A stretch of DNA of 64,000 nt from the NCBI GenBank assembly GCA_052327205.1, contig CM126208.1, forward strand, positions 82,460,001 to 82,524,000. Direction: 5' to 3'. The number at the start of each line of letters is the position of its first letter. Position 1 is the stretch's first letter. Below, piece by piece: positions 710-56,354 of the stretch. The position numbers were made by a program, and so were the translations under genes. The stretch comes from Somniosus microcephalus. Lineage: Eukaryota. A model generated the notes under the pieces. The model saw nothing but the letters and a program-made list of their open reading frames with translations. It was not told where the DNA came from and searched no databases.

Positions 710-894
710 GGGATAGAAATTTGTCTTGGGCGGCAGTGCAAAACGAGCAGTATCGCTTTGGCTGCCCATTTAAATGCCCTGCTCGATATTCAGTGCTTTG
801 AAATCAATGGAACTGAATATCGGGCAGGGAGTATAATGGCAGCCTATATGATACTGTCCATTTTGCACGAATCCCCAAGACAAATTTCTACCCC
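710..894. mobile_element. Palindromic MITE (non-autonomous TIR element)
   Basis: Terminal inverted repeats TAGAAATTTGTCTTGGG..GTGCAAAA / TTTTGCAC..CCCAAGACAAATTTCTA; related copy at 52753-52905. Confidence 0.7.
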
Positions 895-910
895 TATGCC
901 TTTTTGTGTG

Positions 911-1368
911 TCAGCTGTGGCTCAGTTGGTAGCACCCTTGCCTTTTGAGTCAGGAAGGTTGTGGGTTCATGTTCCACTCCAGAGACTTGAGCACAAAAAT
1001 CTAGGCTGACACTCCAGTGCAGTGCTGAGGGAGCGCTGCACTGTCGGAAATGCTGTCTTTCGGATGAGATGTTAAGCCGAGGCCCCATCTTCCCTCTCAG
1101 GTGGATGGAAAAAATCCCATAGCATTATATCGAAGAAGAGCAGGGGAGTTATCACTGGTGTCCTGGCCAATATTTATCCCTCAAATCAACATCACTAAAA
1201 ACAGATTATCTGACCATTATCATATTGCGGTTTGTGGGAGCTTGCTGTGCGCAAATTGGCAGCTGCGTTTCCAACATTACAACAGTGACTACACTCCAAA
1301 AGTACTGTAAAGCACTTTGGGATGTCCGGTGGTCGTGAAAGGCACTATATAAATGCATTTTTTTTTGT
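911..1368 (+). mobile_element. tRNA-derived Deu-domain SINE (SacSINE1-like)
   Basis: Pol III A box (TGGCTCAGTTGG) and B-box-like GGTTCATGTTCC; central GAAGAAGAGCAGGGGAG..GGTGTCCTGGCCAATATTTATCC block; L2-like tail GTGAAAGGCACTATATAAATGC. Several copies in the window. Confidence 0.75.
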
Positions 1369-1499
1369 TTATTGAATATTACTTATAAATACACAGTACG
1401 ATTGAAAATTGCTATTTTATTTGGGAGGTACCACCGAAGTGCATCAGGAGCAGGGGACATCACACTTTTAAAGTATCTGCATAACCTAAAGAGTGTTGT

Positions 1500-2911
1500 C
1501 CCTTTTGGGCTTTAAGGCAGATAAAGTCAGTGACAGACTGCAGTTCAGCCGGGGTGTTGCCCCTCGTGTTGTGTAGATTGACCCGAGTTGGCTGCAACGG
1601 GTGTTATTTTCTTGTTGTTTTGGGGAAGGTGCTGCTGTTGTTTGGAGCAGGTGGCAGAGCCCAGCAGGTGGGGATTGAGCGCCTGGATCTGCGAGGGCAA
1701 CGGCTTCCCCTGACAGGCGGGGCGAGCGGCGCATCCTGTGTGCAGACACTCACAGCCGGCGCTCAGGGCAAAACCAAGGCGCTCTCTCTCCCCCCTACTA
1801 CCCACCGCCCGAGCTGCGGCCCTTCCAGCTGAACGACTAACCAGTATTAGCTTTTATGGTGAAGGCACCTTGGTGAAGTCCTTCGTCTGGCCCATGTAGT
1901 CGAGGTACTGTGCAAATAAGGTGCATATTATACATAGAACAACATGTACGATTTGGGGTCAGTTGAACTTTCAGGTGTTAAAACCCGTACATTGTATTTT
2001 GCATGCAAAAAATTGGGAGCGGAAAATGTAGCAGCTGTGTTTCGTATGGTGTAGCTAGTTGAATGTCGTGAGAGAGAAAAAAAAACCTAGCAGACTGGAA
2101 ATAAGCCAGCAGAAGGGAGATTATGATGCCGATCTCAGAGTAGCTGGATTCTGGAAGTCCCGTTTTAATAGCAGATCGCGATAAGACACAGGGAGAGAAG
2201 CCAGGAGCTCTCGGCTGTAGCAGATGGCAGAGAAGGAAAGTATTTGAGCCGAGCCCGAATGCAGCAGCAGCCCTTCCCTTTGAGCTCTCGGCAGCCGGGC
2301 TTGGGGAAAGCATCACCAGCGATCAAGCTGCACACAAGACACGCACACACAGCCCTCAAACAGAGAGAGTGGGAGAGCAAGAGACACTCTGCCAGTTTAT
2401 TGTTAACATATACTTGACCTCCTGACCCCTTCACGACACAGATGTCTGCTCTACCTCTTTCAACTCCCCCTGGCTAAACCCCACCCACCCCGCACCTGGG
2501 GAGCGAGTTACCAGCGCCAGCCGGCTTTGCAGGCAGGACTCTCTTCAGTACAACTGCTCGCTGCTAACGAGAGTATCTATCCGGCCGGGCACATCTACGG
2601 AGGGCGGCTGCCTGGAGTTTGTCTTCTGATCTGACATCGTGACGATCGATCCTGGTGGCCTGCAAACATCCAAAGGAGGCAACTCGTTTGTATTTTTTAA
2701 AAAAAAGCAAAACAGTTTGTTTTCCCCCTTGCCCCTGAAGTTTGCAATAGTCCTTCTTGTTTGGGGAGATCTGAAGTTTTCAGTATTTTCTTCAGTTGGT
2801 GCTGAGTTTTACGTGTGGACGGATCTGCTTGGCTGCAGGGAGAAACTTGCATTTTTCCTTATTTGTTTTGTGGCCGAGGTCTGGAACTTCTATAACTTAA
2901 TAAATAGGCGA
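1500..2911 (+). promoter_or_regulatory. RUNX1T1: GC/CpG-enriched upstream promoter and 5' UTR region of RUNX1T1
   Basis: Locally GC- and CpG-rich against an AT-rich background, directly upstream of an ATG-bearing exon with a canonical donor. The TSS cannot be determined. Confidence 0.55.
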
Positions 2912-2939
2912 ATGGTTGGAATCTCTGGATCTTATCAAC
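2912..2939 (+). CDS. RUNX1T1: RUNX1T1 alternative first coding exon (MVGISGSYQ + phase-1 C)
   Basis: ATG GTT GGA ATC TCT GGA TCT TAT CAA C|gtaagt; joins exon 28622 in frame as [21 protein letters not shown]. Resembles MVG-type N-termini of the MTG family. Confidence 0.8.
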
Positions 2940-5900
2940 GTAAGTGTGGTTCGCAGCATTTGCCTTCCTATTACTGATATCTTCCCCCGGTGTTAATTTA
3001 GGGCATCTGCGTATTTAAGCAGCAAGTTATTAGTTAAACGGATGCAATTGTAGCGACGTTCTCGTCTTTTGAGCTGTGACATTTGTTTTCATTTTTGGAA
3101 TGCAAATTGTATAAATTTGATTTAAATGATTGACCCAGTTATTTGAAGAGAGGCATTAAACACGAGACATACAGGTTGCTGTTAAAATGATAATGCAAGC
3201 TATAATAAAAAGCTTACACATTGTATAGCGTGAACAGGATTGTGCACTTTTAGATTAATTACCTCTATTTAACAGTTGGAGTTTCACTTGACCTTCGTCC
3301 TTCTGTCAAAACAATTGTCTCATTCATATTAGAATTTTCCAAAAATCAGAAAGTTCACTTACTTGGAAGTATGATGAAATATGATGTATGGATCATCAAT
3401 TAATTCATTTGATCTTTGTAGTGATTTGATTTGATCTATTAACCAGTATTTAACTTGCTTGTCGATGGGCATTTGTTGGTCTATTTTCAGCACTTAATCC
3501 TGTTATCTAGGAAGCTTTACATCTGGCTTTGTTTTGGAACGGCTACAATTATGTGATCTAGTAATATGAGAAAGGGGCATGAGGGGAAATGGCTCCACCT
3601 GGAGAGTGAGTTGCAGGGCAGTCAGCTCTGACCACCCTTTCCTGTCAAATCCTGTTTTCCCCTTATACAGGAGATGCATTCTAAATGCAGAGCGTTCAAT
3701 GCAAAGCCCAATTCATTAAAATTCTTAGTGACTGCATCACTTGTGAGCAGCTCAAACTGAAAGAAAGTTAGCATCTGCAGTTTTGCATTTGAAAACAGTA
3801 GCTGTCACAATTGTCAGTTTCATCTTTTGATTCACTTTGATGATTTTCCCAATGCAGTTCATTAATGGAGATCTTTCAGTTGTTAAATGGAAGGTTAATA
3901 TATTGTTTTGAGCTTTGGATTTCAATTAAAAAGCTTGGTCTTTGTTCTGTGGGAACTTGTCATGTGCTGTGATCAAGATGCCTTATCAGTTAAATAAAAG
4001 GTGACTTAGTACTTGCATGTTGGGGAGGCTGGTTCTCATGAGCACTAGCAGGAGATACATGTGGATAAACAATTGATGTTTGTGGTTTGGCAAAATGTGA
4101 ACATTAGTTTGCACAAATTCATGAGCATATTTTTATTATTGTATATCAGATATGTCCAACTGTTAGTTACACTTTACTAGAAACATCATAAAATTTAAAT
4201 AAATATAGAGAATACTTATTTTGAAATTCACGACTAGTTGCATATTCAACCGTTTCCTTTGAAAGGCTTTTTTTTTGTTTGGCCTAATCAAAGCCTTGCT
4301 TAAATTAACTCCAGTTTTGTGTATAAGAACATCTTTATTAATTTTCTTTTAACATAGTTATGGTACTGGAATTCCTTTTATGTACAAGTGCATTTTTGGG
4401 GGTTTTGGAAAAGGAGCCTGTTTCCCACTTGTCGCACCCAGAAACATTTCCATGAAGTTTGTTTTTGTTTCTTTTGGTGATAAAATAATTGCTGGCCACA
4501 GGGACATGAAAATAGTCGAGTTTTATTCCTACACTAAATTCTCACTTAACTGTTCAATGTCAGGAAGCAATTGCATATAGGACACAAATCTTAACCCACC
4601 AGCAGTGGTCCTTTACTGATCTTTCTTTCATCAGTGTGAGACACTCGTGAAAGAAGATTCACACTACGTTACCATTGCAGGTAAATTTGCTTTTGTCTTA
4701 TCTATAGTTTATTCCAAATTTATGAATGAAATAGAACTTTTTAAAATGATCACTTTCAATAGTGCACCATGCAGTATTGGTTGGAGAAATCTATTCTAAC
4801 ATTGAGGTTTCTCCACTTTGAGGTGAAAGCTCTAATCATTTCTTCCTGCATGGCATTTTGGATCCAATGACACGACTGTAGTTTGTTGGAACTCTAGCTA
4901 TGCCATATAACACACAACAGCATTTTGATGTATATAAATACTGCATGTTATGAGCCAGTGCAGAGTACAAAGATGTAATTGGGTCCAGAATTTACTACAG
5001 GAAGAAGGAACAGCATCCCCTAGTGAGAATACAGTGTTGGAAGTAGTACTTCTTCAGAACACAGCAATATAACATTTGAACCATGATTGTATTTGTGAGA
5101 CTACTATTTGGCATTTACCATTTTATATAAAAAAGTTATCTCTTCAACAAATTCAATAGCTACATAGGTTTGTAATCATTAAGGAATCTGTGAAATGGAT
5201 CTAGTATGCAAGAATTTGAGTTTTAATCAAGAAATAATGCATATGTGCTGAAATTAAAATTGAATTTTGCTTAAGCTTTAATAACAATGACATGCTATAG
5301 TAAATTTTATCTAATTTTTATATTTTTATTTATACTTCTATAAAATGAGGAAAGAGCATGTTTTCTAAGTGATTAAAACACACGATAATGATTTTAATAT
5401 CACTACATATTTTTATATGTTTTATATGCCTTATTAACGTCACATTGGTTAGGTTTGAGTTTGGTCATTTAACTGAGGAAACATCAGTTCAATTTGTTAT
5501 GGGTAATTGTATGTGCTAAGTGTTGAGTAGGGTTATTTACATGGTGTTCAAACAGAACAAGACACTTTGCCCAACTTCAGTAGCCATCTGTAAGTGTAGA
5601 GGGCTTGCACCTGTCAGTCCACACTAATTATAGATTAGGGTCAAAGAAATGAAATATGAGCAGTTGCTGTCGATGATTACTCCAACTCTTCTAGAAAATG
5701 ATTATTTGTGATGTACATGTTTATTTTCAGAAAAAAAACACTATGGCTATATGATAATTATGTAAAAATTTTTAATGCTCATTCCATTTTGAGGTTAATG
5801 TTTTTGGCAATACATGCAAAAACTTCTTCTAATAAAAGCTGCTACTGTAATCCTAAAACTCAAGGAAATCATTTGTCTGGGGAAAAGCTGTTCTCACAAG

Positions 5901-6304
5901 GTCACTTTTTTCAGTTGAATATTATTTTAGTCTGTCGTGTCCACAGTCATATCAATGAGCCTTCCATGTTATTGGATTAGTTGAGGATTTGTGACAGACC
6001 CCTTTTATCTGCCATATTCATAGTGGTGCCAAGCTTTTCATCAGCTCCTTTTTTATTACAGTTCTGCTTTTCCACTCACATTATGGCAATGTGCTCTCAC
6101 AATTTGAGCAGCTTTCCACCAGGTGACAGGTGTCCTGCCCGGCTGCAGTTGGCCGGGAGTCCATTTTCTGTAATCCTCAGTCCGTGTTTTCCCTTTGAGT
6201 TGCCAATTAACTTCTCACACACCCTCTGTTTATTTTCCTGGATCCATCTGGGCTGAGCTGATATTGTAATCACTCTAATGCACATTGCCTTCCCTTCACA
6301 CACA

Positions 6305-6399
6305 ATGTGCCATCATGACGAGCCTTTTATTTTAGATAAGCCGAGGAAGTGTGTTTAATGAATACAAACCCGTTGTGCTGGTGTGCACTCTGCCAGAAG
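6305..6399 (+). other. RUNX1T1: Homolog of the MCH-type alternative first exon of RUNX1T1, frame-disrupted
   Basis: MCHHDEPFILDK.. then, one base out of frame, SVFNEYKPVVLVCTLPE + G|gtaatc. Matches my recall of the human isoform N-terminus MCHPDKAFTSDKLQCVFNEYK...LPE. Confidence 0.65.
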
Positions 6400-9300
6400 G
6401 TAATCTCCATGAATAGGTGCTTTCAGTATTTGGAGGAGATGCATAAGTCGATAAGGCTGGGAGTGAAGATGTAACCTGTTATCTGCTGCTCCTCTTGCTG
6501 GCAGTGAATTTACATTTAAAGATTAACACTGAAGAAAAGCTGCCTTTTGACAAGGTTAGGTATCATTCCTGGTCTTGACAGTATCTGACATCACCTAAAC
6601 CATTTCTGCAGGACTTCTAAAGGTGAGATTACCAGAGTCGTTATCTTTAATTGGGTTTAGCATGCCATCTCGGACTGCTTTCTGTAGTGTAGAACTAAGT
6701 ACTGGGAGATGATAATGGAGAACAAAGGATTATTTATTGATGTGGCTTTATAACCATTAGAATACTAAAGAATATGGTCAGGGTAATGACTTGATTTGCT
6801 ATTTCATTATGTGTAAATTGCCTGAAAATAGTCTTGCCTCTCACAGAAAAACCAATAAAGCTCTTGAATGAAGAGGCAGAAAGCCTTTGTCTTTTATTTT
6901 TGATGGCATACATTTGATAGAACTCGCTCTCTTGTGTTGTCTGCTAGTGAAGCTGAAGAGACCAGTGTGGGTTTGTTTAAATATAGGTAATGGTGCACTA
7001 ACACCATACAACACATGTAAAAATGTTTATATCCCTGGATGTATTCCAATTCAGCAAATAGAATGAAATAAAGCTTAGTTGAGATTTGTTTTTTGCATGG
7101 AGTAAGTATTTTTATTTTAGGGGAGAATTACAACTAGTCAATAGGTCGAGACAATAGAAACCATTATTTACTTCTGAGCATATTGACATTTTGTGTTTGT
7201 GACTGGCTCGGTGTGTGATGAGATATTTTAGGATCTCACTGGTTACAGTACACAAATATTGCTGTAACTGACCTTTATGTCCTTAGACAACCCATTTGAT
7301 GTTTGCAGATTCTTCCTAGGGGGGTATTATTTAAACAAGGGTATTACATTACACAAGATGCAAATATGTGGCCTTGTAACAATTTAAAGCTTCTTTAATC
7401 ATTCCTTGTATTTTATTATGCAATAAAAGTGACGATGGAAATTTAAAGCCTAATGTAATGCTGGCCTGTCTGAATCATGTGTCTTGTAATTGTTGGTATG
7501 CGGGCGACTTTTAAGAATGTTCGAGACTGAGGTTTGTATGATTTTCATGAAATTGTTTTGCTTCTGTTTGATCAGCAGGTGCTGCTGAGATGAAAGCCAT
7601 GTGCAAATTATTTCAAGGATAAAAAGTGTCGATTAAAAATGAATGTGATAAAAGAAAGAGCAATCCGTTTTCTGTTTTCAATTTGTGCAAAGTTTGAAGA
7701 GCTATTCTGCTAAACTGCCACATCTGTTCCTTTTTGAATATTGCAGTACATCCCCCTATAAATAAAGTGCTTTTTATTGGTCTAAATAGCCTGAGTTTTC
7801 AAAATGGCCAAAAATATATTCTGAAGAATCCTGATTGTAATTTGTCTCTCCATGGTATTTTCCTTTTACCAATTATTGATAATTATGGAGAGAATCTGAA
7901 GGTGGTGGTAGCACTTTTTTTTAAAGACAAAATATGCTACTGTAATTTGTTTGAAATGATGCATTTAACTGTGTGCCAATACTGAGGCTGAAAGTAGATA
8001 CCAGAATTATTTATTTATTTTGTTTGGGTTTTAAAGTGGCATACTTTCCAGCTTTTAAAATGGATTCCACTCTTGACATACCTTATTGGAAGCACATGAG
8101 CAGCATGTGTCTTACAGCATTCACCTACTGTATCTTTACACAGTTTTATTGAATTTCATGACTTCGCGCAAATAGAGCTGAGAGTAAAAGCAGCTGACTC
8201 TGAAATCTCATTTCCCCAACAAGCATTCTGCAGTTTAGTAAATAAAGTTTTAATTTTTCACCTTTTGAATAGCTTGTAAACTCCATAATGTCGCACAATT
8301 TCCCAGTTTAAAAAAAATCTATATTAAAATTTCAGCATTTTCACATTCGCAAAGTTTGCACGCACTTTTACTCAGCGATACAAACAAAACTTTTTGTTTT
8401 AGAAATAAAGAGAAAGATGTGGTGCGTTTTGCACTGAAAGGTGATGAGGGTGGGTGAAAAATGTTAATAATGTAACCCACTATGTGATAAATTAATTCTG
8501 AAAAGTAAATGTCCTCTAAAATAGCAAACCCCAGTGAGCTGGAGGGCACTTGCTGAAGAATTGCCTTGGTAGTTTGCTGCAGAGTCCACTGATTGCATTA
8601 GTAATGCAGTTTAAAATCATCATCACAACAGTGAACTGTGCAGGTACAATTCAAATACTTGTAGAAATATTCTGAAAGGAGGAGGAAGGTTTGGTGGGAT
8701 CCATCAGACCAAAGCAATATAAAGAAAAATTACAATATTCTCGTGTTTAATTGTTATTGAGTTGCCTGAAGGCTTTTTAAAACTTGGTTTGCTACATTGC
8801 TTTCATGGTCAGACGCTCAGCAGATGAAATCAGAAAATCATGTTTGCAGCTGGGCAATTACAATGGTGCCCAAGATCTGTGACTATCGAGCATGAACGCA
8901 GATGCCTTCAAAGTTATATTTTCTTGCATGTGGAGGTTGTTGGCATGAAACAGATGCCTTCATTTTTTTTTGAGAAGTCAGCCTGTGGATATAATTGGTT
9001 CTCTCTTCCCATCCTCCAGGGAGAGTCTCTCACAGATGAAATCAGATGAGAAAAATTTTGCACAAAGCAAACGTATTCATGGTTTAAGCACCCTGTGCTG
9101 CAGACACAGTCAATGACTAGATTCCTCATATTTATGGAACAAGAAATAAGAGTGTGTGTACAATTTTTTTTCAATTTTATTCCTGTAATAAAAAAAATCA
9201 ATTTGGTGTTACTGTAGCGAATATGTATACGCATCTGCACTAAATTGTATATATAATAGTGCGGATGATTTTAAAGCCCTTGTTTGACAAAGCAAAGCTT

Positions 9301-10104
9301 TTCCAAAATGAGTGCATTTTAGCATATGGTTGGAATCAATCAAAAAATATCTTGTGTGTGCAACTGATTACATTACCATCTGTCATAAAATGTCCTCAGT
9401 TGGCATCTTTTTTTTTACATAATGTCAGAACCACAAGAACCATTTTATGAAAAAAAACAATGATAGGCTGTTTCTTTATAGTAAGGGAAACTTGGGCTTG
9501 GTTCTCAGATAAACATATGGTTTTCATCATTTCACGAGCTGGTAAGAAAAATGGTTCTGTTTTTTGTTGGAATGATAACATTTCAATTTGCTCCATTTGC
9601 TGACTAATATCTAGTCCATTTTATGGCCTACAGTATTTACATTTTTATATTACAACATATTAAAGTAAAAGTCTAGGGGATAGAATTCCACAAGTTGATC
9701 ATTTTAGTGGAAAATGTCATCATTTCCTGTTTTGTGCTCACCAACTTTTTTGGTAAAATTATTGACATCAGGCATTCATTCCCTTAGTTATTTACTCTAG
9801 TTTGGCAATTCCACAAGTAATTTGTGCTACATTTAAATTGTGAAACTGTTTCTACTTGAAGCAACTTGGCAATCTATTTTGGTTCCTTGTGCTCTGGAAT
9901 TTGCCTCATTTGCATTGTGGGGTGGATACCAGAATGCTGGCAGCAGCACTGCAACAACTGAACATTACATTGCTCAGAATTTGGAATTATAAAGTGGTAA
10001 TTTTTCTCTCCTGGATATTTCTTGATGTTTACCATACGAGGTGCGGTACCTTTCACAATACACAAAAAAAACACATTTCTCAAAGTGGTACTTTGTGTGG
10101 CCAG

Positions 10105-10388
10105 GGCCAATAGAATCATAGAACTTGCAGCACAGAAAGAACCCATTCAACTTGTTGCTTCTGTGTTGCTGCTACTACATTGGAGCTATTTACTCCTAAT
10201 CCTTTTTTTCTGCTCTATCTACATTATTCTTTATATTCTTCTTCATGATTTTTCCAAAACCAAGCTACATGATGTGATCGTACCTGCCTCAATAGCCACT
10301 TGTAGTAATAAACCTCTGCATGAAAAAAATAATCTAACATTCCTCTTTGTCCTTCTAGTGACAATGCTCAGTCTATGCCCGCTTGTTA
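10105..10388 (-). mobile_element. Degraded CR1 3' fragment
   Basis: Starts with the AGAATCATAGAA..CAGCACAGAA tail (reverse strand); decayed ORF2-end sequence. Confidence 0.55.
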
Positions 10389-10389
10389 A

Positions 10390-10770
10390 AGAAAGGAAAA
10401 ACTTGCATTTATATACCACCTTTCATGTTCTCGGGACATCCCAAAGTGCTTTAAACAAATGCAACCATTATGTACTCAAACACATAAGCCAATTTGTACA
10501 CAGCAAGGTCCCACTAACAGAAAATGAATGAATGACAAGATAATCTGTTCTTGGCTGAGGGAGGAATGTTGGCTAGGACACTAGGACAATCCCCTGTCCT
10601 CCTTTAAATAATACTTGGAATCTTTTATGCCCACCTGAGTAGGCAGATAGGACTTTGCTTTAAGGCCTCATCTGCAAGACAGCACTTCCACAGTACTGCA
10701 CTGAAGTGTGAGCCTAGATTATCAAGGGGCTTGAATCCACAAACCACTGATTTAAAGGCAAGGTTCTCTG
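10390..10770 (-). mobile_element. Degraded Deu-domain SINE
   Basis: Reverse complement of the SINE at 911 (CTTGCATTTATA tail; ATAATCTG; GCACTGAAGTGTGAGCCTAGA). Confidence 0.65.
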
Positions 10771-11091
10771 GACTGAGACAAGCTGGCATTCAGCAATTTC
10801 CCAACCAGTGGAAACAACCGTTCAATGTTTACCCTCATGATTTACTAACCAGTGGAAACAATCTTTCATTGTTTACCCTCTCGAAATGCTTCATAATTCT
10901 ATCAGCGTTGCCTTATTTTCACTGCTATGGAGTTGGGATGGTTTACGTAGTAGTGATATAACAGAAATGGAGCAATGGGCACCCAGCCACTACAATAGTG
11001 TGAATAGTAATTGTAACCTAGTCTGTTCTATTTAAGTTTTATGAAAGCTGAAGCTTTCTTTTCATTTATGTGGAGGTTGTTCTGTTAATTC

Positions 11092-11572
11092 CTAGGTTGT
11101 TCTATTGATTCCTGGGATGAGAGGGTTGTCCTATGAGGAGAGATTGAGTAGATTGGGCCTATACTCTCTGGAGTTTAGAAGAATGAAAGGTGATCTCATT
11201 GAAACATAAGATTCTGAGGGGGATTGACAGGAAAGATGCTGAGAGGTTGTTTCCCCTGGCTGGAGAGTCTAGAACTAGGGGGCATAGTCTAAGGATAAGG
11301 GGTCAGCCTTTTAAGACTGAGATGAGGAATTTCTTCACTCAGAGGGTTGTGAACCTTTGGAATTCTCTACCCAAAAAAGCTGTGGATGCTGAGTCGTTGA
11401 GTGTATTCAAGGCTGAGAGAGAGAGATTTTTGGACTCTAGGAGAATCAAGGGATATGGGGATAGGGCAGGAAAGTGGAGTTGAGGTCAAAGATCAGCCAT
11501 GATCTTATTGAATGGCGGAGCAGGCTCGAGGGGCCGTATGGCCATCTCCTGATCCTAATTCTTATGGTCTTA
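11092..11572 (+). mobile_element. CR1 LINE 3' fragment
   Basis: ORF 11190..11483 (ESRTRGHSLRIRG..FFTQRVVNLWNSLP) plus the CR1 3' UTR. Confidence 0.85.
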
Positions 11573-13144
11573 AGTGCATAAGACCATAATGGTAATTTTC
11601 TTAATTGTATAGTCTTGCAGTCTACACCCTTCATTGTCACCAGTGCAAATGCTAAACTATTAATTGCTCATTTGTCTCCTAGCTTCTAGATGGTATAAAC
11701 ATTATTCTTGACTTGTTCTGTTGTAAACATAAATTTTAGATTTTGTTTTGCATATCTGTGTACGTATATATGTACCTTTTCTTGAGTGTACACCCGGACA
11801 AGTCATTAGGACTGATATTGTAAATTTTTTTTTACAATTGTAACAATGTACAGTGTGGCAAGAATGGTTAGTGTTCTGTCGGTACTAAAGGAACTCATTG
11901 TCATGAGATAAAGGAAGATCATGTGCTTTTGTAGTCGATTATATTTAAAGATAAATATATGGGTTGCTTTACAGTGAACCACAGTGATTCGAATCCAGTT
12001 TAGTTGTACTGCAGTAGTCAAATAAAATTCTGAGAAGTTAAACAATTTTGGACTACCTATTTTAAGATTTTGCGCACTATCTTATATTCCTACTAAGTCA
12101 CTGCAATTGCTGCTTTTTTCCTCTGGGAAGCAGCATGAGATGCTTTTCTACTTTAAAGATGCTATATAAATGCAAATTGTTGTTATGGGACTGTGCATGT
12201 GTGCGTGTTTACATGAGCACATGAAACTTCAATGATCATGTATATACATCAGTGCTAAAAATTTAGATGGAAAAATACCTATCTGGAAGACCAGAAGTAT
12301 TCAAAGTTGGAAACTGGTCACTTGTGTTTACATCATAGACACATGTTTCAGGGACACATGTGTTTGAGTATTGTGTATGGTCTTGAGACAGCTCAGTCTG
12401 GAAATGTTTCTGTTTCACAATAAAGTCTAAAGTTAATTGTGCTTTTTGTATTGATCAAATGTAAATCCCAGATAATGCTGGCTTTGTTTACCAACAGAAG
12501 TGAAAGTTAGATGAGATTTATTCCCATCTGTAAAATCAGGGAAGCATCCTAATTATGAGAGGGAGGGTATAGTTTATTATCTGGTTGTGATCTAAGCCTT
12601 TTTTTGTCAGGCTAAAGATTGATATCCAGGCTAGAGGCCAAAGTCATCTATAGCCAGAAAAAGACGTAGGAAATTAGCCAAGGACTGGCAGAAAGCAGTC
12701 TGGTCTAAACAGCAAAACAATTGGAATTCATCAAGTAGAATAGGAAGGCCGGTGAAATGGAGAAAGGAACTTTCATTTGAATAGAGCTATGGGGAGATAG
12801 CCAAAAATGTGACTTTGTGTCTTCAGCTGCTATTTCTGACTCCGGGCATTGTCTCCCAAGAGCTCTTATCTCAAATTCCTGGATATGAACTTCTTACTTC
12901 CTAAAAATGAACAAAACAAAGAGCAGCAAAATAAAAGCAGATGCTGTTGTGAATAACAGTTATGTTTCTTCTGCAGTTAATTTTTTTTAACAGTACAACT
13001 TCTGGAACTATATTTTTTAATGTAAAATGCATCACTTTTTTAAAAGCTGTTATTTGCCAGTTTAAAAAGTTCACCTTCTATTCAGACAAACTGTCAATCA
13101 TCCCCCTAAGTTTTGTTGTAATGAAAATAAAATTTGTGCTGGTA

Positions 13145-24500: not shown

Positions 24501-26620
24501 AAACCAGACCCCACCAAGTCAGCCTCTCGTATGAAAGAGCACCTTGTTTAAAACAGACTGAATAATTAATATAGGCTGCGTGTAGTGAAGTAATTCCATT
24601 TGCTTTATATAGTGTCATACATTTTCACATATTGGAGGCTGTTAGATAAAGAAATTTGGCAGTCATCTTTTAGACTGCTTCCATTTAAACAATTAAAAAA
24701 AACCCTGCCACAAGCTTGATTTACCTTTTTGCCACTGTCTTTTAATTGTCTTTAACCGATCAGACTCAAAGTTGCTTCGTATTTACCATCTTCTAGAATG
24801 GAAATTATTTCACATTATTACTCACAAACTTTTGTTTCTATTCGGGCTTGGCCATGCAGCCTTTAATTTGAAAATAGTATGCATAACAAGTGAACTCTTT
24901 TTTTTTTTAAAAACCCAGCACTTTCACTTCTAATAAGTGTTTCAGTTTCTAGAGGAAGAGAGGGAAGTTAAATCAACATTCCCATGATTATGCTTTTACA
25001 TTAGGAATAAAGTATTCTTGCAGAAACTCAACATTTTGAGCTGAAAAGGTTCTTTTGTACACTTACACTGTGGCTTTGCTAAGAAACAAATCATCATTCA
25101 GAATGATTGTGCTACCCAGAACAAATGGAACTGATTTACAAATACTCAAACCATATTTTCTGAGTTTACATCAAGTCACTAACTTTACTAGAGGCTTGGG
25201 TTTTTTTTGGATATGGATTAGGACTGGCCCATTACTTCAGCATTATCTCCATCATGAATTGATTGCGCTAAACAGCACTGAATGAGTTGCAGATGGTGGC
25301 ATTACATTTAATTTGGAGGACCTCTCGGCTCTGGCTCCATCTGATCCAGGGCAGGTTGGCTGTGCATGAAACCTTCTGGCTGACACCAAACTGTCAGTAC
25401 AGTAGAAGCATGTGTCTGCCGGGTTGGGGGAGGCAGTTTTAATCCTCAGCAGAGCTGTGCTGCAGATGGAGATGCTTGGGTGACTATTTTGGATAGCTTT
25501 CAAGATTTCATAAGGAAGTTCTGTATTAGGACTAATTGTGTGTGCTAAAGTGTAGAGATACACAGAAGTAACATGATTTCAGATTTATAATTACAGTTTA
25601 TGCTTCAGTACTTGTAGAATGCTGAGATATTTAAGCATGAGGGATATGAGCCTCTTGTATAAGTAACAGATTAATTCCACAGGCTTCTTTCCCATGTGTT
25701 TTGGAGCTGGTTATCTGGACGGTCTTTTTTAACAGTACAGCTTGAGTGTTAGCAGAATGGAAACCAGATGGGCTAGCAGTTCCCACTGTTATCTCCCAAC
25801 CAGCCCTGGCAAGCTCACTGCCCCAGCATGTCAGGAATATTTTCCTTTATTTAGGAGAGCCTGAATTCACTGCTCTGTCTGCAGTAACATGTGGTTGTTA
25901 GTTTTGGGTTTGGAACTGAAAAATATTTATTCCATGTGATTCTAACCACTTGAGGTAGTGAGGTGAAAAGACAGGGTGCACTGTTGAGCAGTGAAGGCTG
26001 GAAAACGACCGAGTATCATTGGCAAGCTTGTTCGGTCCCAAATATGAATTTAGTCATGGTCTTTTGAAAATACCAAAACTGTAAGTTGACATTAAGAATA
26101 AAATCTAGTGGATAAAGAAGTGACAAATAGTGAGAGACCCATTTATTTTTTGTGTTTCATGATCCTAATCTTCTGAAAAAGCTGTGGTAGCAAGAACGTT
26201 GAAACATTTTGGAAGAAGTAAATCTCTGGATAGATATTGGTACTGTGATCCTATGTGCTTTAATAAAGTTAATGTGGATTTTTTAAAAAGCATTTCAGTT
26301 AAAATTGCATTAAAATTAGCCTAATGTCCAGGCTTGTGTGTTACTGATTTACATATTTGTGCCAATTGCCCTATTTTTAAACTTTGCTTAGCTTCCAATA
26401 ATGTGGTGAAGTGTGTGACCAATGAATTGCTGGATTAAACAGAAATCAAATAACGTTTCACAGTAATTATACAATGCATAGACAAAGTCCTATTAATTTT
26501 AATTAGCTATGAGCTGTTCTACAAGAGAGAAAGAGGCACTATATTACACACAAACTATTTATGTTTAGTCACAGTTCAAGGATTCCAAATACCCTATAAT
26601 TTAGGTATGTGTTATATGTA

Positions 26621-26953
26621 CAGGAAACTTCGCGATATCTGGCACCGACGGGACTGAGCTGCTGCCAATCTATCAAAACTTCTGGATAGACCAGTGCTAA
26701 TGTTGAAGGATACGGAGGTTTTCATCTCCGTATCTGACAATAAACACTGTTGCTTAGCAACAGCTTGTAAACACTCGGCCCGTACCTTGGAAGCGTCTCT
26801 GAAGCTGTTGCTAAGTTACAGAGATACTTTCCAGAGCCTGACTGTTTAAAAAAAATGCTAGGAGAAAAAAAAACTAACCAAAACGGCTGCTGATTTCTGC
26901 CGTTAGATCGAGGTTTCCAGACATACAACCTCCGGATAAACCAAAGTTTCCTG
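26621..26953 (+). mobile_element. Tc1/mariner-type (Tigger/pogo-like) MITE, copy 1
   Basis: TA|CAGGAAACTT ... AAGTTTCCTG|TA: terminal inverted repeats with a TA target duplication. Confidence 0.85.
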
Positions 26954-27606
26954 TACGTGGTGACATATTATCGATAAGAAGTAACATTGTAAATAAAATA
27001 TATAGTACAATAGGCCCTAATCATAGCCTCAGACTTTACGGACCCATTTAAAGCCAGGACCTTGGCTGGCCGCCATTCTTTTCACAATTGGATTCCATCT
27101 ATCCAGCAACATTCTTGTTCGGCCAAAATAAAATGACTGCTTTAGTTCTGGATCTGAGGAAAGCCTAGATTATGGCAAGATGGAAAAAGACTGCATGGGA
27201 AGAAAGTAACTGAAACATGAGGAACAATTCGTGAAGGAAAAAGTGAAATCTATCATTGCACTGGGGAAGGAAAAGAAAATGTAGGAAGTAGGCACTGTGT
27301 GTTTGTTACAAAAACTTCTGGGACTTGTCCTGATTAAAATCTTAACTCCGTCCTTTTAAATGGTTTTGCAGAGACAAGAACTCATTGAAAAAGCTTTTTT
27401 TTGTGAACTATTTCAAATTGATAGGTTTCTATAAACATATGAAAATTGAAATATGATATTCAGTTTACAGCTTGGTGGACAGAAAAACAGTGCGGTAAAT
27501 TGAGACTGTTGATGGAAATAGTGTGCAAGAATTAATTATGGCTTATTGTTAAAGTAGCTCAGGAATAAATGAGACACCTATTCATCTGCAATAAATCACT
27601 GATATA

Positions 27607-27933
27607 CAGGAAACTTTGGTTTATCCGGAGGTTGTATGGCCGGAAACCTCGATCTAACGGCAGAAATCAGCAGCCGTTTTGTTAGGTTTTTTTTTCTTCT
27701 CCTAGCATTTTTTTTAAACAGTCAGTCTCTGGAAAGCCTCTCTGAAGCTGTTGCTAAGCTACAGAGACGCTTCCAAGGTACGGGCCGACTGTTTACAAGC
27801 TGTTGCTAAGCAACAGTGTTTGTTGTCAGATACAGAGATGAAAACCTCCGTATCCTTCAACATTAGCGCTGGTCTGTCCGGAAGTTTTCATAGATCGGCA
27901 TCACGTCGGTGCCGGATATCGCGAAGTTTCCTG
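27607..27933 (-). mobile_element. Same MITE family, copy 2, inverted relative to copy 1
   Basis: Reverse complement of 26621-26953 over its full length, with TA TSDs. Confidence 0.85.
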
Positions 27934-28621
27934 TACTAATACAGTATTTTGTAGGCTGTCAGAATCAACCTCAGTCCAGTATTTGTTTTCAATTTTTATT
28001 TAATGAATATATTTGGAACCGCTTATGCATGTTATACTAACATGGTGTTGAAACTAATATACTTTACGTGCTCCCTTTTTAATGTTCATGAGCCGTGAGT
28101 TTCCAGACTGCTGCTTATACAGTTAGTTAACACATGGCACCCTCTGTGCCAAAACAAAAGAAAACAGACAGGCATTAGGTGTTGCCTCAGAGATATTGTG
28201 TATTTGGTTCACATTGTGCCAGTGTCTTACCTGTACATTAGGTTTTTCTATCAAGTTTGTCTTTAGGGGCTTCATTACATTCCCTTTTCTCTTCATCTTT
28301 GTTTTTGGTAATATTTGAGTACTGAACTAGAAGACAATGTTGAAATGGAATTGGGCTCGTGCTTGATGCTAAGGAAGCATCTGTACGTCTTTGAGCCAAG
28401 AACAAAATGACAATCTCTCCACATTACTAATGAGATGACACCATCTGGAACATGCCTCCTTACAATTGTTTTGATCAGGGAATGATTAAAAGATGAAATG
28501 ACTGTTTTTGGCCACTAAAATTACCTTTTTGGAATGGTATGATGGTATTTAACAGTTCCTTGAGCAACTGATGCCCAGAGGAAGAAAAGAATAACACCAA
28601 TTCCTCTTTTGCCTCTGACAG

Positions 28622-40818: not shown

Positions 40819-40908
40819 AATTCTACCTTGACAATTGAAGAATTTCATTCCAAACTTCAAGAAGCTACGAATTTCCCCCTCCGACCTTTTGTTATACCGT
40901 TTCTAAAG
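40819..40908 (+). CDS. RUNX1T1: RUNX1T1 exon 4 (NHR1/TAFH)
   Basis: ttgcag|AATTCT...AAG|gtattt; [30 protein letters not shown]; 90 nt. Confidence 0.97.
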
Positions 40909-51664: not shown

Positions 51665-53215
51665 TTGTTATTTGGATGTTGGTGACCCTGGCAAGGCAGC
51701 ATTTATTGCTCATCCATAATTACCCTTGCAATCCTTGTGGTGATGTGCTCCCACAATGGTGTTATATAGGTAATTCCAGGGTATTGACCTCGCAATGAAG
51801 AAGAAATGGTGGTATATGTTCAAGTCAGGCTTATATGTGACTTGGAAGCGATGTTCCCTGGCATTACTGCTCTTACTCTACTTGGTGGTAGAGCTCACGA
51901 GGCTGGATGCTGCTGTTAGAGTAAGCTTGGTGAGTTGCTGCATCCAAAGTGTGTTGGTGGTGGAGGGAGTGGGTATTGAGTTCAATGGCAAGGTTGTTGA
52001 TCAAGTGGCTAACTCTGTCCCAAATGATGTTGAAGTTTTTGAATATTGTTGTGGCTGCACCCATCCAGGTGAGTGGTGAGTATTCCGTCACACTCCTGAA
52101 TTGAGCCTTGTAGATGGTGGATAGGCTTTGAGGTGTCAGAAGATGATCCATTCATCAGCATATCCAATCATTACTCTGCTGTTTTAGGCAGGGTGTTAAT
52201 TTGGCTGGGCAGTCCAGTTATGGTTCTAGTCAATGATGAGCCCGAGGATGTTGGTGGGAGCAACTTGATGATGGTACTGTTGAAGATCAGTGAGGTGGTT
52301 GGGCCATTTCTTGTTGGTTATCATTGCCAGGCACTTGCGTAGTGCCAGTGTTACTTGCCACATGTCAGCTCAAGTCTAGGTGTTGTCCATGCCCTGCCAT
52401 AGGCTTACAAGGGCTGCTTCATTATCTGAGGGGTTGTGGATGGAGCTGAACACCAGAATCATCAGCAAACGGCCATACTCTTGACCTTATGACAAAGGAA
52501 AAGTCATTGATGAAGCAGCTGAAGATAATTGAGCCAAGAGCACTGCCCTGAGGAACTCTAGCAGTAATATTCTAGGGCTACGGTGATTACCGTGACCATC
52601 TTCCTGTGTGTCAGGTATGACTCCAGCTATGGAGGGTGTTTCTCTGACCTCTCCTTGCATTTAGCTCTTGTGCCCATGCCTGTATAAAAGCTACGATGAG
52701 GTCTGGTACCCAATTGTTCTAGTGGAACCCAAGTTAAACATTAAACATGATGGCCTAGAAATTTGTCTTGGGCAGTGGCGCAAAACGGACAGTATCGGAT
52801 CGGTCGCCCGATATAGCAGCACCTGATACTCTGTTCCATTGCAGTCACTGGTACTGAATGTTGGGCGCTGCGTATAACGGGCAGGCCCGAGACAAATTTC
52901 TAGGCTGATGTGTCTAGGAATGTTGATGGGAGGAGCCTGGGATGTTGGCTAATAGAAATAACTCTGAGTGCGACTATGCCAGTCTGTTGCAGGACTAATT
53001 TTTGAGACAGTTCTTGCAATCTGGGCACCAATCATCAGTTGTTGTTGAGAATTTTGCAGGGTCACCTGGGCTGGGATTACTTGACTAATCCAAGGTCTGG
53101 TTGCTGCCAATAGGACAATCCAATATTTCTCTCATTGTTCTGTTTAATATTGGTTGTTTTAGAACTGTGGCTTGTTAGGCCACCTCAGAGAGCATTAAGA
53201 GTCAACCACAATTTG
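51665..53215 (-). mobile_element. Degraded non-LTR retrotransposon (RT C-terminal region)
   Basis: Minus ORF LLTPQSLSTIYKAQFRSVTEYSPLTW; decayed VPQGS.LG and FADD-like regions around 52455-52560. Confidence 0.6.
52753..52905. mobile_element. Palindromic MITE, same family as 710-894
   Basis: GCCTAGAAATTTGTCTTGGGC / GCCCGAGACAAATTTCTAGGC inverted ends. Confidence 0.75.
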
Positions 53216-53917
53216 TCAGACTCTTGCCTCCCCATATATTACATATATATTATAATATATATACTTGTTTTGTGCTTTTTTTTGTTTGTCTAGGACTAAC
53301 AAGTCATTACTGAAATCAGTATTGACTTGTTAGTTCTAGACGGGAATCATTTATAAAAAAAAATCTAAGTGGATCTTTAATTTATTGCAAACTACCAAGG
53401 ATCACACTATCTTCCTTTTGCATGGTAAATCTTTGATTTTGTGTATTTCAAATAAACTTGTACAGAGCTAGTTAGCTCCATAACAATGGACTGATCAGCA
53501 TTGAAATGTATGATACTTGTGCCTCCTGTTTGCTAATCAGATTGGTGCAGCATACAGCTTCCTACCAGTGCCGTCGCCATGACAACCACCTTGGTTGTTC
53601 CAGGTCTGGTAGCACACTTGCTTTCGTGCTGCATATTACTACTGGGACAACACTGTGTCTTTTCATGTGCATATGGCTGCAGAGCTCCAGTGTGGAATTG
53701 CAGCCAAATGCAATCTATGCTTTACCACATGATGCTACAGCAGTGGTGGGCAAAATACAGCCTGTGGGCCATATCTGGTCCACCAAGTCATTCTATCCAG
53801 CCCACTGGACGGGACAGAAATAGAACGCGAGCCGGAGCTCGAGCTGCACATTAGTCACTTTCACTTCTCGTGGGTCAGAGACGGACCCGAACTGTAGCCA
53901 GGAAACGCCCCGTAATA

Positions 53918-54250
53918 CAGGAAACTTTTTTTATCCGGCACCGACGGGACCAACGTGGTGCCGGTTCATCAAAAATTCCGGATAACCGAGAGCTATAGTA
54001 AAAGATAGAGAGAGCTGAGAGCTCCGTATAAAGCAACAAACCCTGTTGCTTAGCAACAGGTGCAGAACAATGGCCACAAGTTCCAAGTGTCTCTGTAGCT
54101 TGGCAACAGCTGCAGCCACACCCAATTGCACAGCAACAGATCGAGGAAGGCAAGTAATATGAAGTAAAACTTACCTGAACCTACTCCTGAATTTTGCCGG
54201 TTAACCGAGATTTCCGGTTATTTAGGTGCCGGTAAATCGAAAGTTTCCTG
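53918..54250 (+). mobile_element. Tc1/mariner-type MITE, copy 3 (diverged relative of 26621)
   Basis: TA|CAGGAAACTT...AAGTTTCCTG|TA; shares GGCACCGACGGGAC and CTGTTGCTTAGCAACAG. Confidence 0.8.
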
Positions 54251-54395
54251 TAATTCAATTTATCAATTCGCAAAAGTGATTCTCCCCAGCCTGATCTTCA
54301 AAGGATAATGTTCCGCTTCTGGGCCCCAATGGCAGATGCCCACACCCTGAATGCACTGCACACTCGAACATACCCTATCATTTTAGAGTCGAGTC

Positions 54396-54536
54396 ATGGC
54401 TGCTCATCTCCATCTCTCCTTTACCAAAGAGACTGGCACTGCATCTTTCCTCTCCCGGTACTCCGAGTATGATGGCAGGGGGGTTCTCATCGCCGTCTTA
54501 GATACTGGAGTGGATCCCGGAGCACAAGAACTCTAG
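54396..54536 (+). pseudogene. TPP2: Captured fragment of tripeptidyl-peptidase II exon 1 (46-aa ORF)
   Basis: [46 protein letters not shown] versus human TPP2 [37 protein letters not shown] (recalled); followed by gtaatg. Confidence 0.85.
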
Positions 54537-54788
54537 GTAATGGCACGCGATTATAGATACTGCGCATGCCTCACTGCTTATAGAGCAATGTGTTTAGTCT
54601 GCCACCAGTTTTGTGGTCAATATTGTTTCTGTCTTAATGGAGGGCTCTTCATTTCAACCTTGCTGTTGCAGGGGGACCATGATGTGGGCTTATTTCTGCT
54701 CACTGGGTCAGTGTTCATGCTAATTGGAACTTCTGTTGAGTCTGGACTGTGCTGAGGCTGATAAAGGGTTTTGCGCACTGAATCGCTT

Positions 54789-55572
54789 AGAATCATAGAA
54801 TGGTTACAGCACAGTAGGAGGCCATTCAGCCCTTCGAGCCCATGCCAACTCTATGCAAGAGCACTTCAACTAGTCCCACTCCCCCGCCCTTTCCCCATAG
54901 CCCTGCAATTTTTTTCCCCTTCAGGTACTTATCCAGTTCCCTTTTGAAAGCCATGATTGAGTCTGCCTCCATCACCCTTGCATTCCAAATCCTAACACTT
55001 GCTGCATAAAAAAGCTTTTCTTCATGTCGCCTTTGGTTCTTCTGCCAGTCACCTTAAATCTGTGTCCTCTGGTTTTCGACCCTTCCGCCAATAGGAACAG
55101 TTTCTATCTACTCTCTCTAGACCCCTCGTGATTTTGAACACCTCCATCAAATCTCCTCTCAAAGTTCTCTGCTTTAAAGAGAATAACCCCAGCTTCTCCA
55201 GTCTATTCACGTAACTGAAGTCCCTCATCCCTGGAACCACTCTTGTAAATCTTTTCTGCACCCTCTCTAAGGCCTTCACATCATTCTTAAAGTGTGGTGC
55301 CCAGAATTGGACACAATACTCCAGTTGAGGTTGGACCAGTGTTTTATAAAGGTTCATCGTAACTTCCTTGCTTTTGTTCGCTATGCCTCTATTTATGAAG
55401 CCCAGGACCCCATATGCTTTTTAACCACTTTCTCAGCCTGCCCTGCCACCTTCAACGATGTGTGTACATATACTCCCAGGTCTCTCTGTTCATGCACCCC
55501 CTTTAGAATTGTACCCTTTAGTTTATATTACCTCTCCTCATTCTTCCTACTGAAATGTTTCACTTCGCACTT
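54789..55572 (-). mobile_element. CR1 LINE 3' fragment
   Basis: Minus ORF NLYKTLVQPQLEYCVQFWAP..LEKLGLFSL; AGAATCATAGAA tail. Confidence 0.88.
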
Positions 55573-55752
55573 CGAGGATAGCCTCGTACAGAGGTAGCCT
55601 TGAAATCAGATAGCAAAATAAGGAACAATGGATACCTGCATGGGGTACTGGAAATAACATAGCAAACGGCCAGCTGCACAGTCAAATATGTAACCCCTGT
55701 ATGTTTTCAAAGACCGTGCAAATGTAGCTGGTTCATTTCAAATGCTCTTACT

Positions 55753-55963
55753 CAGGGGTGGCCAATTATTTGGGCTGGAGGGGCACTTAACAGTACTGCA
55801 CGCGCAGTATCTCTTCCAGCTGCAGGAGCTGGTGAGAGGCTTGTGCGGGACTTCGTGATTGGTGTGAGACCACGCACCTTTGGGGGAACATTGGTGTGCG
55901 GCCCTCAACAGCTCGCCAAAACTTGTTAAGTGGCCCTCCAGCCCAAATAATTGCCCACCCCTG
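55753..55963. mobile_element. 211-bp hAT MITE forming the right end of the composite element
   Basis: 40-bp inverted arms (CAGGGGTGGCCAATTATTTGGGCTGGAGGGGCACTTAACA), 38/40 matching; its own flanks (CTCTTACT / TGCTACAG) do not form a TSD. Confidence 0.8.
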
Positions 55964-56172
55964 TGCTACAGCAATCCATGCTGACTAGCATCCCATCACT
56001 ATGAAAAGCCTGTGCAAAAACGCAGCTTCCAAGGGCAGCAAATAACTCATTGTGTTGTCAGGCCACTTTTGTTATTTGCTTATTCATTCATCTGTAAGGT
56101 CAGTGGGGTCTAGCAGTTCTCCCTATGTGGCTGCGCTGACTGATATTGTTTTGTGTGTCATTCTTCTTGCAG

Positions 56173-56354
56173 GCCAACCTGCCCCTGCTGCAGAGGGAGC
56201 TACTTCACTGCGCGCGCTTGGCCAAGCAGAACCCGGCACAGTACCTCGCACAGCATGAGCAGCTGCTGCTGGATGCCAGCACCACCTCACCCGTCGACTC
56301 CTCCGAGCTGCTGCTTGATGTTAATGAAAATGGGAAAAGGCGAACTCCAGACAG
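56173..56354 (+). CDS. RUNX1T1: RUNX1T1 exon 5 (end of NHR1; NLS region)
   Basis: ttgcag|GCC...AG|gtgaga; [60 protein letters not shown]; 182 nt. Confidence 0.97.

What the first reader, a model, noticed from the sequence alone, without database searches (positions are those of the whole stretch)
54396..54545. TPP2 fragment looks DNA-derived (ends at the exon 1 donor) and keeps an intact 46-aa ORF with the catalytic Asp motif
Seen: Kozak-like GTCATGG and an open frame through [19 protein letters not shown]. Homology stops at the position of TPP2 Gln55 (here TAG), followed by gtaatg and no VTTDGKPK. Known: DTG carries the subtilase catalytic Asp (Asp44 in human TPP2). Inference: the breakpoint is the exon 1/intron 1 junction, so this is an unprocessed genomic capture rather than a retrocopy. 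The ORF is below the 60-aa track cutoff.
Basis: partly seen in the sequence, partly recalled or inferred. Interest (0 to 1): 0.75.

Follow-up and report, generated by a model that had tools for sequence, protein, structure and literature searches.

The report
Shark transposon carrying TPP2 first exon
The peptidase fragment is not a mini-gene but cargo: a cut-and-paste transposon picked up the first coding exon of the TPP2 gene and spread it, probably to tens or hundreds of places in shark genomes, and this decayed copy sits in an intron of RUNX1T1.

Summary
The TPP2 match is real and ends at the conserved exon 1 donor, but the frame is open, not intact. It has lost 7 codons, 4 of 37 aligned positions differ at residues invariant in 12 chondrichthyan TPP2s, and its TAG is a private C>T (other copies read CAG). 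The fragment lies inside a ~1.1-kb non-autonomous hAT (Buster-type) element at 53741-55963, with 13-bp TIRs and a perfect 8-bp TSD (TGCTACAG), in a RUNX1T1 intron. A Tc1/mariner MITE and a CR1-like LINE inserted into it later. In contigs of three related genomes the flanks are single-copy and the element is multi-copy: roughly 20-30 copy-equivalents over the internal parts and 300-400 over the exon end. Copies differ from this one by about 12%, and in 8-10 contigs per run the left end joins the exon directly. So this is a multicopy Pack-TIR carrying a coding first exon. The kind is known, but vertebrate cases I read of have 3-5 copies, and none was reported in elephant shark. Not shown: the parental intron 1, an empty site, other copies' TSDs, any function.

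The parts
53733..53740 (.). Left target-site duplication TGCTACAG (nnnTAnnn)
   Evidence: identical to 55964-55971
53741..53915 (+). hAT left end: 13-bp TIR (12 of 13 match to the right TIR) plus subterminal DNA
   Evidence: depth rises from single-copy or zero to about 220-270 copy-equivalents at 53799
53918..54250 (.). Nested Tc1/mariner-type MITE flanked by TA (53916-17 and 54251-52); a later insertion
   Evidence: two more copies near 26620 and 27608; two other family records start at 54251 (table 8); superfamily label inferred from TA target and TIRs
54253..54395 (+). Internal DNA upstream of the ATG: candidate TPP2 promoter/5' UTR (origin untested); skipped in a short derivative
   Evidence: 17-18 contigs in X1; joint 53856 to 54386 in 10, 8 and 9 contigs
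54396..54536 (+). Captured TPP2 exon 1 coding part: 46 codons plus private TAG, net 7-codon loss, DTG at 54501-54509
54537..54784 (+). GTAATG donor-like site and downstream internal DNA (candidate TPP2 intron 1; origin untested)
   Evidence: contiguous with the exon in other copies (X3 records 54426-54623 and 54440-54651); no protein homologue
54785..55570 (-). Nested 5'-truncated LINE 3' end (CR1-like label recalled); a later insertion
   Evidence: 65-70% similar to LINE copies elsewhere in the window; joint 54784 to 55571 in 2, 3 and 2 contigs, i.e. LINE-free copies
55571..55752 (+). Internal DNA, continuation of 54537-54784
   Evidence: X6 record 19 covers 54634-54784 plus 55571-55730
55753..55963 (.). 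Right end: a 211-bp unit with 40-bp 95% inverted arms; the outer arm carries the right TIR
   Evidence: embedded in other copies too (records 55588-55836 and 55617-55840); about 2000-2800 copy-equivalents at 55915, shared with other elements
55964..55971 (.). Right target-site duplication TGCTACAG
   Evidence: depth falls to 0-3.5 beyond 55977
40819..40908 (+). Host gene RUNX1T1-type exon upstream of the intron (ends in phase 0)
   Evidence: TAFH/NHR1 hit on the exon before it; the RUNX1T1 versus paralogue label rests on recalled peptides
56173..56354 (+). Host gene exon downstream of the intron (starts in phase 0)

Best explanation
The fragment is one decayed copy of a multicopy non-autonomous hAT (Buster/Charlie-type) element, a Pack-TIR of about 1.1 kb, whose founder took up the 5' coding exon of the host's own TPP2 at the DNA level. 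Steps: (1) Inferred: template switching or gap filling, or joint use of two nearby hAT ends, placed TPP2 exon 1 with its donor and probably some flanking DNA between a hAT left end and a right end supplied by a palindromic 211-bp unit. (2) Supported by two other copies: the 7-codon loss happened early, before amplification. (3) Shown as multi-copy depth and linkage, inferred as to mechanism: a trans-acting Buster transposase spread the long form and deleted derivatives. (4) Shown: one copy landed at a TA-centred 8-mer in a RUNX1T1 intron and duplicated it. (5) Shown: a Tc1/mariner MITE, a LINE and a CAG>TAG change are specific to this copy or a minority of copies. The 46-codon frame is a passenger with no protease function: from established knowledge of subtilases it holds only the Asp of the Asp/His/Ser triad.
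For: TIR 12/13 with a perfect 8-bp TSD. Chance identity of two window 8-mers is 4.6e-5, or 7.2e-4 given TA at positions 4-5 (about 0.004 after allowing for the roughly six end pairings I looked at). Depth steps at both TIRs: flank bins 0-40 against 790-12,400 in non-nested internal bins in X1, with the same shape in X3 and X6. Rough copy-equivalents: 17-32 for internal parts and 337-429 at 54534. Contigs showing the variant at 54534: 61, 58, 48; at internal sites in X1: 15-19. The left end joins the exon directly in 10, 8 and 9 contigs, and LINE-free copies appear in 2, 3 and 2 contigs. Eleven listed non-LINE pieces differ from the window by 8-17%, mean 12%, against 2.9% (12 of 409) for the orthologous flank in organism D. 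Two records across the deletion are 266 vs 268 and 209 vs 211 letters, so they lack the 21 nt too. Under a neutral simulation at 5-7.5% per-copy divergence, ATG is kept without a stop in 66-76% of runs, DTG in 61-73%, and 3.6-5.4 amino-acid changes are expected in 36 codons against 3 seen plus the stop. Buster TSD consensus nnnTAnnn and hAT 8-bp TSD with 5-27 bp TIRs: PMC3517528 passages.
Against: No parental shark locus, no empty site and no TSD of any other copy was seen; 469 joints and 5457 loose ends were hidden behind LINE noise. No contig spans the whole element. The tool warns that depth is not copy number, and none of the runs is shown to be the window's own species (best holder 47% of words). 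The roughly 10-fold excess over the exon compared with its neighbours is unexplained: no joint from the exon end to the right end is among the 15 shown, so part of it could be TPP2 5' segmental duplicates as in Mustelus. No transposase remnant was found, so the Buster assignment rests on the ends alone. At 10% per-copy divergence the simulation would give 3 or fewer changes in only 6% of runs, so mild constraint is not excluded.
Confidence: 0.84

Rival explanations
1. One-off capture: TPP2 exon 1 was copied by gap filling into a hAT already resident here (a single-copy Pack-TIR, the common vertebrate case), and the high depth comes from ordinary hAT ends plus tandem duplicates of the TPP2 5' end.
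For: Most vertebrate Pack-TIRs are single-copy (PMC8277862 section 7). Mustelus has several exon-1 duplicates annotated on the same 128-Mb contig as TPP2. Exon depth exceeds its neighbours about 10-fold.
Against: Every internal segment has about 15-19 distinct contigs in X1, 8-17% diverged. Separate contigs link left end to exon, exon to downstream DNA, and downstream DNA to the right unit, and some lack the LINE. The Mustelus duplicates keep the stretch deleted here and share the Mustelus residue at position 27, so they are a separate event.
Confidence: 0.07
2. The copy has been exapted, as a 46-aa micropeptide or as a 150-nt cassette/poison exon (54387-54536) of RUNX1T1, which is in frame with both flanking exons and ends in TAG.
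For: AG at 54385-86 has 63% pyrimidines upstream (the real neighbouring acceptors have 32% and 74%), GTAATG follows, the length is 150 nt, phase 0-0, in sense orientation. The insertion seems shared with organism D: its flank contig runs 22 nt into the TIR, below the tool's 31-letter bridging rule.
Against: All 4 changes hit invariant residues, 7 codons are lost, and retention fits neutrality. In RNA run X23, 13 of 13 reads over 54534 carry C and the cleanest has 4 other differences. RNA:DNA depth over the exon (2e-4 to 1e-3) is no higher than over the LINE (8e-4 to 1.2e-3). This is weak, because the run is probably from another species and 24% of it was read.
Confidence: 0.05
3. The TPP2 piece came from mRNA (a retrocopy fragment) and was then enclosed by the hAT element.
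For: Shark exon 2 can begin with GTN, so the GT after the Gln position also fits mRNA. Parental intron 1 was not seen.
Against: Homology ends within a few bases of an intron position kept in 47 of 47 loci that break off there. Retrocopies are typically 5'-truncated and keep the 3' end (established knowledge). No exon-2 peptide or poly(A) follows.
Confidence: 0.03

Closest known systems
Multicopy Pack-TIRs of vertebrates, e.g. Pack-hAT-N8_XT of Xenopus tropicalis (PMC8277862; saw abstract, passages, sections 7 and 10, and a term search of 12 supplements)
   Same: hAT ends around a host gene fragment of a few hundred bp from the 5' end of a gene; TSD; several dispersed copies; often inside a host gene.
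   Different: That survey found only four multicopy cases (1.4%), with 3 or 5 copies in the examples I read, and the example cargo is 5' UTR. It lists 0 Pack-TIRs for elephant shark and has no TPP2 entry. Here the cargo is a coding first exon with ATG and donor, at an estimated tens to hundreds of copies in three related genomes.
HelibatN3 Helitron of Myotis bats carrying NUBPL promoter, 5' UTR, exon 1 and part of intron 1 (PMC4224331; saw passages)
   Same: DNA-level capture of a housekeeping gene's 5' end amplified to high copy (about a thousand there). One such copy splices into a host transcript and adds a premature stop.
   Different: That is a rolling-circle element. This one has TIRs and an 8-bp TSD, so it works like HelibatN3 in outcome but is not a Helitron.
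Non-autonomous Buster-family hAT MITEs such as Drosophila Mar (PMC3517528; saw passages)
   Same: 8-bp nnnTAnnn TSD, short TIR beginning CAG, no transposase.
   Different: The interior carries a host coding exon, and the right end is a separate palindromic unit.
Mustelus asterias TPP2 exon-1 partial duplicates (NCBI gene models)
   Same: TPP2 exon 1 cut at the same Gln.
   Different: They keep the full exon, continue into a new peptide in the gene models, are annotated mostly on the TPP2 contig, and carry the Mustelus-specific residue: a separate, younger event.

Membership tests
hAT superfamily, non-autonomous | 8-bp TSD | tested here: met
   TGCTACAG on both sides
hAT superfamily, non-autonomous | Short TIRs (5-27 bp) | tested here: met
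   13 bp, 12 of 13 match; range from PMC3517528
Buster family | TSD consensus nnnTAnnn | tested here: met
   TA at positions 4-5; one site only
Buster family | Cognate Buster-clade transposase | not testable with these tools
   No genome held; no Pfam hit in 5 internal frames
Pack-TIR | Host-gene sequence between TIR ends | tested here: met
   TPP2 exon 1 between 53741 and 55963
Pack-TIR | Captured at the DNA level (intron or flank retained) | tested here: inconclusive
   Break at the conserved donor, but parental intron 1 and UTR not available
Pack-TIR | Parental copy not itself flanked by the TE | not testable with these tools
   No shark TPP2 locus could be fetched
Multicopy Pack-TIR | Several copies carrying cargo and ends | tested here: met
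   Left-end-to-exon joint in 10, 8 and 9 contigs; 15-19 contigs at internal sites in X1
Multicopy Pack-TIR | Distinct TSDs at other copies | tested here: inconclusive
   Loose ends at the element's ends are not among the 24 rows shown; 5457 hidden
Functional TPP2/subtilase | Complete S8 domain with Asp, His and Ser | tested here: not met
   Only Pfam S8 positions 1-16 of 288 match, below the cut-off
Helitron gene capture | No TSD and no TIR ends (recalled definition) | tested here: not met
   TIR and 8-bp TSD present

The most novel reading that the evidence does not exclude
A vertebrate cut-and-paste transposon family has scattered a ready-made first-exon cassette (TPP2 ATG, phase-0 donor and perhaps promoter) to hundreds of sites across several shark genomes, a scale I found described in vertebrates only for bat Helitrons, and some copies, possibly this in-frame 150-nt unit in RUNX1T1, have been recruited as new first, cassette or poison exons.
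Probability: 0.15. Interest if true: 0.75.

Novelty: new variant of a known kind. Interest (0 to 1): 0.5.

Why it matters
Multicopy gene capture by TIR transposons is reported as rare in vertebrates (four cases in a 100-genome survey) and absent from the one cartilaginous fish screened. A shark family with tens to hundreds of old, slowly decaying copies gives a natural panel for testing how capture happens (template switch versus use of two ends), why 5' gene ends amplify best, and how often a mobile ATG-plus-donor cassette is exonised. It also warns annotators that short TPP2-like hits in shark genomes can be transposon cargo.

Tried and rejected
Own-genome search: no genome is held. No RNA holder was listed for 53700-54800; this is not used as evidence. 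An exact 22-nt donor-region pattern gave 0 matches in metagenome contigs. The 80 loci from the protein scan match the element only over the exon, at 68-86% identity, so none is a family copy or a shark parent. A read-through search (119 aa, 65-209 aa targets) gave 34 hits among 42 candidates, all through the exon part; no annotated protein of another copy turned up. A second captured exon on the minus strand (open frame 54620-54784) was rejected: 0 of 1 candidate, one weak PKD-repeat hit at E=7.5e-4 judged chance. An inner right TIR at 54349, which would make the left part a complete MITE, was rejected: all depth at 54348 in X1 and X3 and most in X6 reads A, breaking the motif, and its flank does not match the TSD. 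The 22-nt inverted match 54555-54576/55791-55812 is at chance level by a hand estimate. dN/dS could not be computed without parental DNA. Three look-ups of earlier findings returned nothing. Literature: 0 papers for TPP2+transposon+shark, 0 for TPP2+hAT+transposable element+captured and 0 for the tripeptidyl peptidase/hAT query; the listings showed no shark Pack-TIR. Repbase and Dfam could not be searched, so the family may already sit there unannotated. PMC12637253 (passages) added only Buster TIR lengths of 14-16 bp.

Full report
Observation. ATG is at 54396, followed by 46 sense codons, DTG at 54501-54509, TAG at 54534-54536 and GTAATG. The peptide matches TPP2: E=1.2e-7 to PDB 3lxu, and 140 hits among 185 candidates, of which 120 were listed. 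Its GAQ-x-L ending matches cartilaginous-fish TPP2, not the GAPGM of most bony vertebrates. So the window is most likely a cartilaginous fish and the source is its own lineage (inference). The fragment lies in sense orientation in a 15-kb intron of a RUNX1T1-type gene, between exons ending at 40908 and starting at 56173 (the paralogue label rests on recalled peptides).

The frame is open but not intact. I compared 12 chondrichthyan TPP2 N-termini, leaving out four duplicate isoforms and two that lack the N-terminus. Exon 1 has 54 codons in them; the fragment has 47 with the stop, and the invariant FPYQGLLPK stretch is lost. Of the last 37 positions, 4 differ, each in a column invariant in 12 of 12. 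Each can be one transition. A neutral simulation used the substitution spectrum and an assumed indel rate of one eighth of substitutions. At 5-7.5% divergence it keeps ATG without a stop in 66-76% of runs (25-40% after frameshifts) and DTG in 61-73%, and expects 3.6-5.4 amino-acid changes against 3 seen; at 10% divergence, 3 or fewer changes occur in only 6% of runs. The ORF and the Asp therefore need no selective explanation, though mild constraint is not excluded.

DNA versus RNA origin. A metagenome scan kept the best 80 of 245 confirmed TPP2 loci. Of these, 47 break off at GT directly after the Gln position, 33 continue into the exon-2 peptide, and none does anything else (the set is redundant). 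Short ENA/Logan read-through proteins and the Mustelus partial duplicates leave TPP2 at the same place. The intron position is thus ancient and the fragment ends there. GT alone is not diagnostic, because shark exon 2 can begin with Val. I could not obtain a shark TPP2 locus, so whether 54537 onward is intron 1, and 54253-54395 is 5' UTR, remains untested.

Outside the reported coordinates, a 13-bp TIR starts at 53741 and its partner ends at 55963 (12 of 13 match), with TGCTACAG on both outer sides. Two random window 8-mers are identical with probability 4.6e-5, or 7.2e-4 if both have TA at positions 4-5. An 8-bp TSD, short TIRs and nnnTAnnn define hAT and its Buster family (PMC3517528 passages). 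Two later insertions sit inside: a TA-flanked MITE at 53918-54250, with two more copies in the window, and a LINE 3' piece at 54785-55570. Without them the element is about 1.1 kb. Its right end is the outer arm of a 211-bp unit with 40-bp inverted arms.

It is a family. I laid three DNA contig sets (organisms A, B, D) and one RNA run (A) on 53345-56150 at 80% likeness; these were 4 of the 24 runs listed. Flank bins have depth 0-40 in X1, 0-14 in X3 and 0-21 in X6. Depth jumps at the left TIR and falls to 0-3.5 just past the right TIR. Against single-contig depth, internal parts stand at roughly 17-32 copy-equivalents, the left end at 218-274 and the exon end at 337-429. The tool warns that depth is not copy number, so these are rough. 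Contig counts agree in direction: 15-19 at internal sites in X1, and 61, 58 and 48 at 54534. Linkage is direct. The left end joins the exon (53856 to 54386) in 10, 8 and 9 contigs. Records run from 54251 into the exon, from the exon into the downstream DNA, across the LINE site without the LINE (2, 3 and 2 contigs), and into the right-hand unit. At 54534 about 99% of depth reads C, so the family has CAG before the donor and the stop is private. Two records across the deleted region are 266 vs 268 and 209 vs 211 letters long, so they share the 7-codon loss. Eleven listed pieces differ from the window by 8-17% (mean 12%), while the orthologous flank in D differs by 2.9% and runs 22 nt into the TIR. 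The amplification is therefore several times older than the split from D, and the insertion is probably shared with D.

Limits. No record spans the whole element. No empty site and no other copy's TSD was among the rows shown (469 joints and 5457 loose ends hidden). None of the runs is shown to be conspecific with the window. The 10-fold excess over the exon is unexplained: a short derivative is my guess, but no exon-to-right-end joint was shown, and TPP2 5' segmental duplicates could contribute. Such duplicates exist in Mustelus asterias, where several gene models consist of TPP2 exon 1 followed by a new peptide; they keep the full exon and the Mustelus residue at position 27, so they are independent.

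Expression. In RNA run X23 (24% read), 13 of 13 reads over 54534 carry C, from about 2 start sites, and the cleanest has 4 other differences. They may be parental mRNA or other copies. RNA:DNA depth over the exon is no higher than over the LINE. This is weak evidence. The stretch 54387-54536 is bounded by AG and GT, is 150 nt long and is in frame with both host exons, so a cassette or poison exon is possible; it is untested.

Mechanism. Most likely (0.84): a founder hAT element took up TPP2 exon 1 at the DNA level (inferred: template switching, or pairing a left end with a neighbouring palindromic unit), lost 21 nt, and was amplified in trans by a Buster transposase. One copy entered this intron and decayed, receiving a MITE, a LINE and a stop. 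Rivals: single-copy gap filling plus tandem duplicates (0.07), exaptation (0.05), retrocopy (0.03).

Comparison and novelty. It meets the tested criteria for a non-autonomous hAT and a multicopy Pack-TIR; intron retention and other copies' TSDs are inconclusive. In PMC8277862 (abstract, passages, sections 7 and 10, term search of 12 supplements) multicopy cases were four, with 3 or 5 copies in the examples I read, elephant shark had 0, and TPP2 does not occur. In outcome it works like bat HelibatN3, which amplified NUBPL exon 1 to about a thousand copies (PMC4224331 passages), but it is not a Helitron. Searches found no report of this family (searches returned 0; the listings showed none). Repeat libraries could not be checked. 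Verdict: a new variant of a known kind, interest 0.5. The ORF itself is ordinary decay; the carrier is the finding.

Noticed in passing
window 54387-54536: AG..GT-bounded 150-nt stretch in frame with both flanking RUNX1T1 exons: frame-preserving with the family's CAG, a poison exon with this copy's TAG.
   Followed up: partly
P0001, P0003, P0121-P0125 (Mustelus asterias gene models): At least five gene models made of TPP2 exon 1 followed by a novel peptide, several on the same 128-Mb contig as TPP2: an independent, young duplication of the same exon.
   Followed up: partly
window 53918-54250, about 26620-26955 and 27608-27935: TA-flanked MITE family, three copies in the window; very high depth in organisms A and B but over ten times lower in D, suggesting a lineage-specific burst.
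   Followed up: partly
window 52753-52905 and about 712-890: Two related short elements with about 21-bp inverted ends, another MITE family.
   Followed up: no
window 53288-53341: Near-perfect 54-nt hairpin (26-nt arms, 92%).
   Followed up: no
window 55753-55963: The right-hand unit has 40-bp inverted arms, but only its outer end is very high copy (about 2000-2800 equivalents against about 30 for the inner arm), so the right end is shared with other hAT families.
   Followed up: partly
window 44023: Another CAG-GGG-type TIR-like start after a TA-rich 8-mer; no partner end found.
   Followed up: partly
window 54620-54784 (-): 55-codon open frame inside the element with no credible homologue.
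   Followed up: yes
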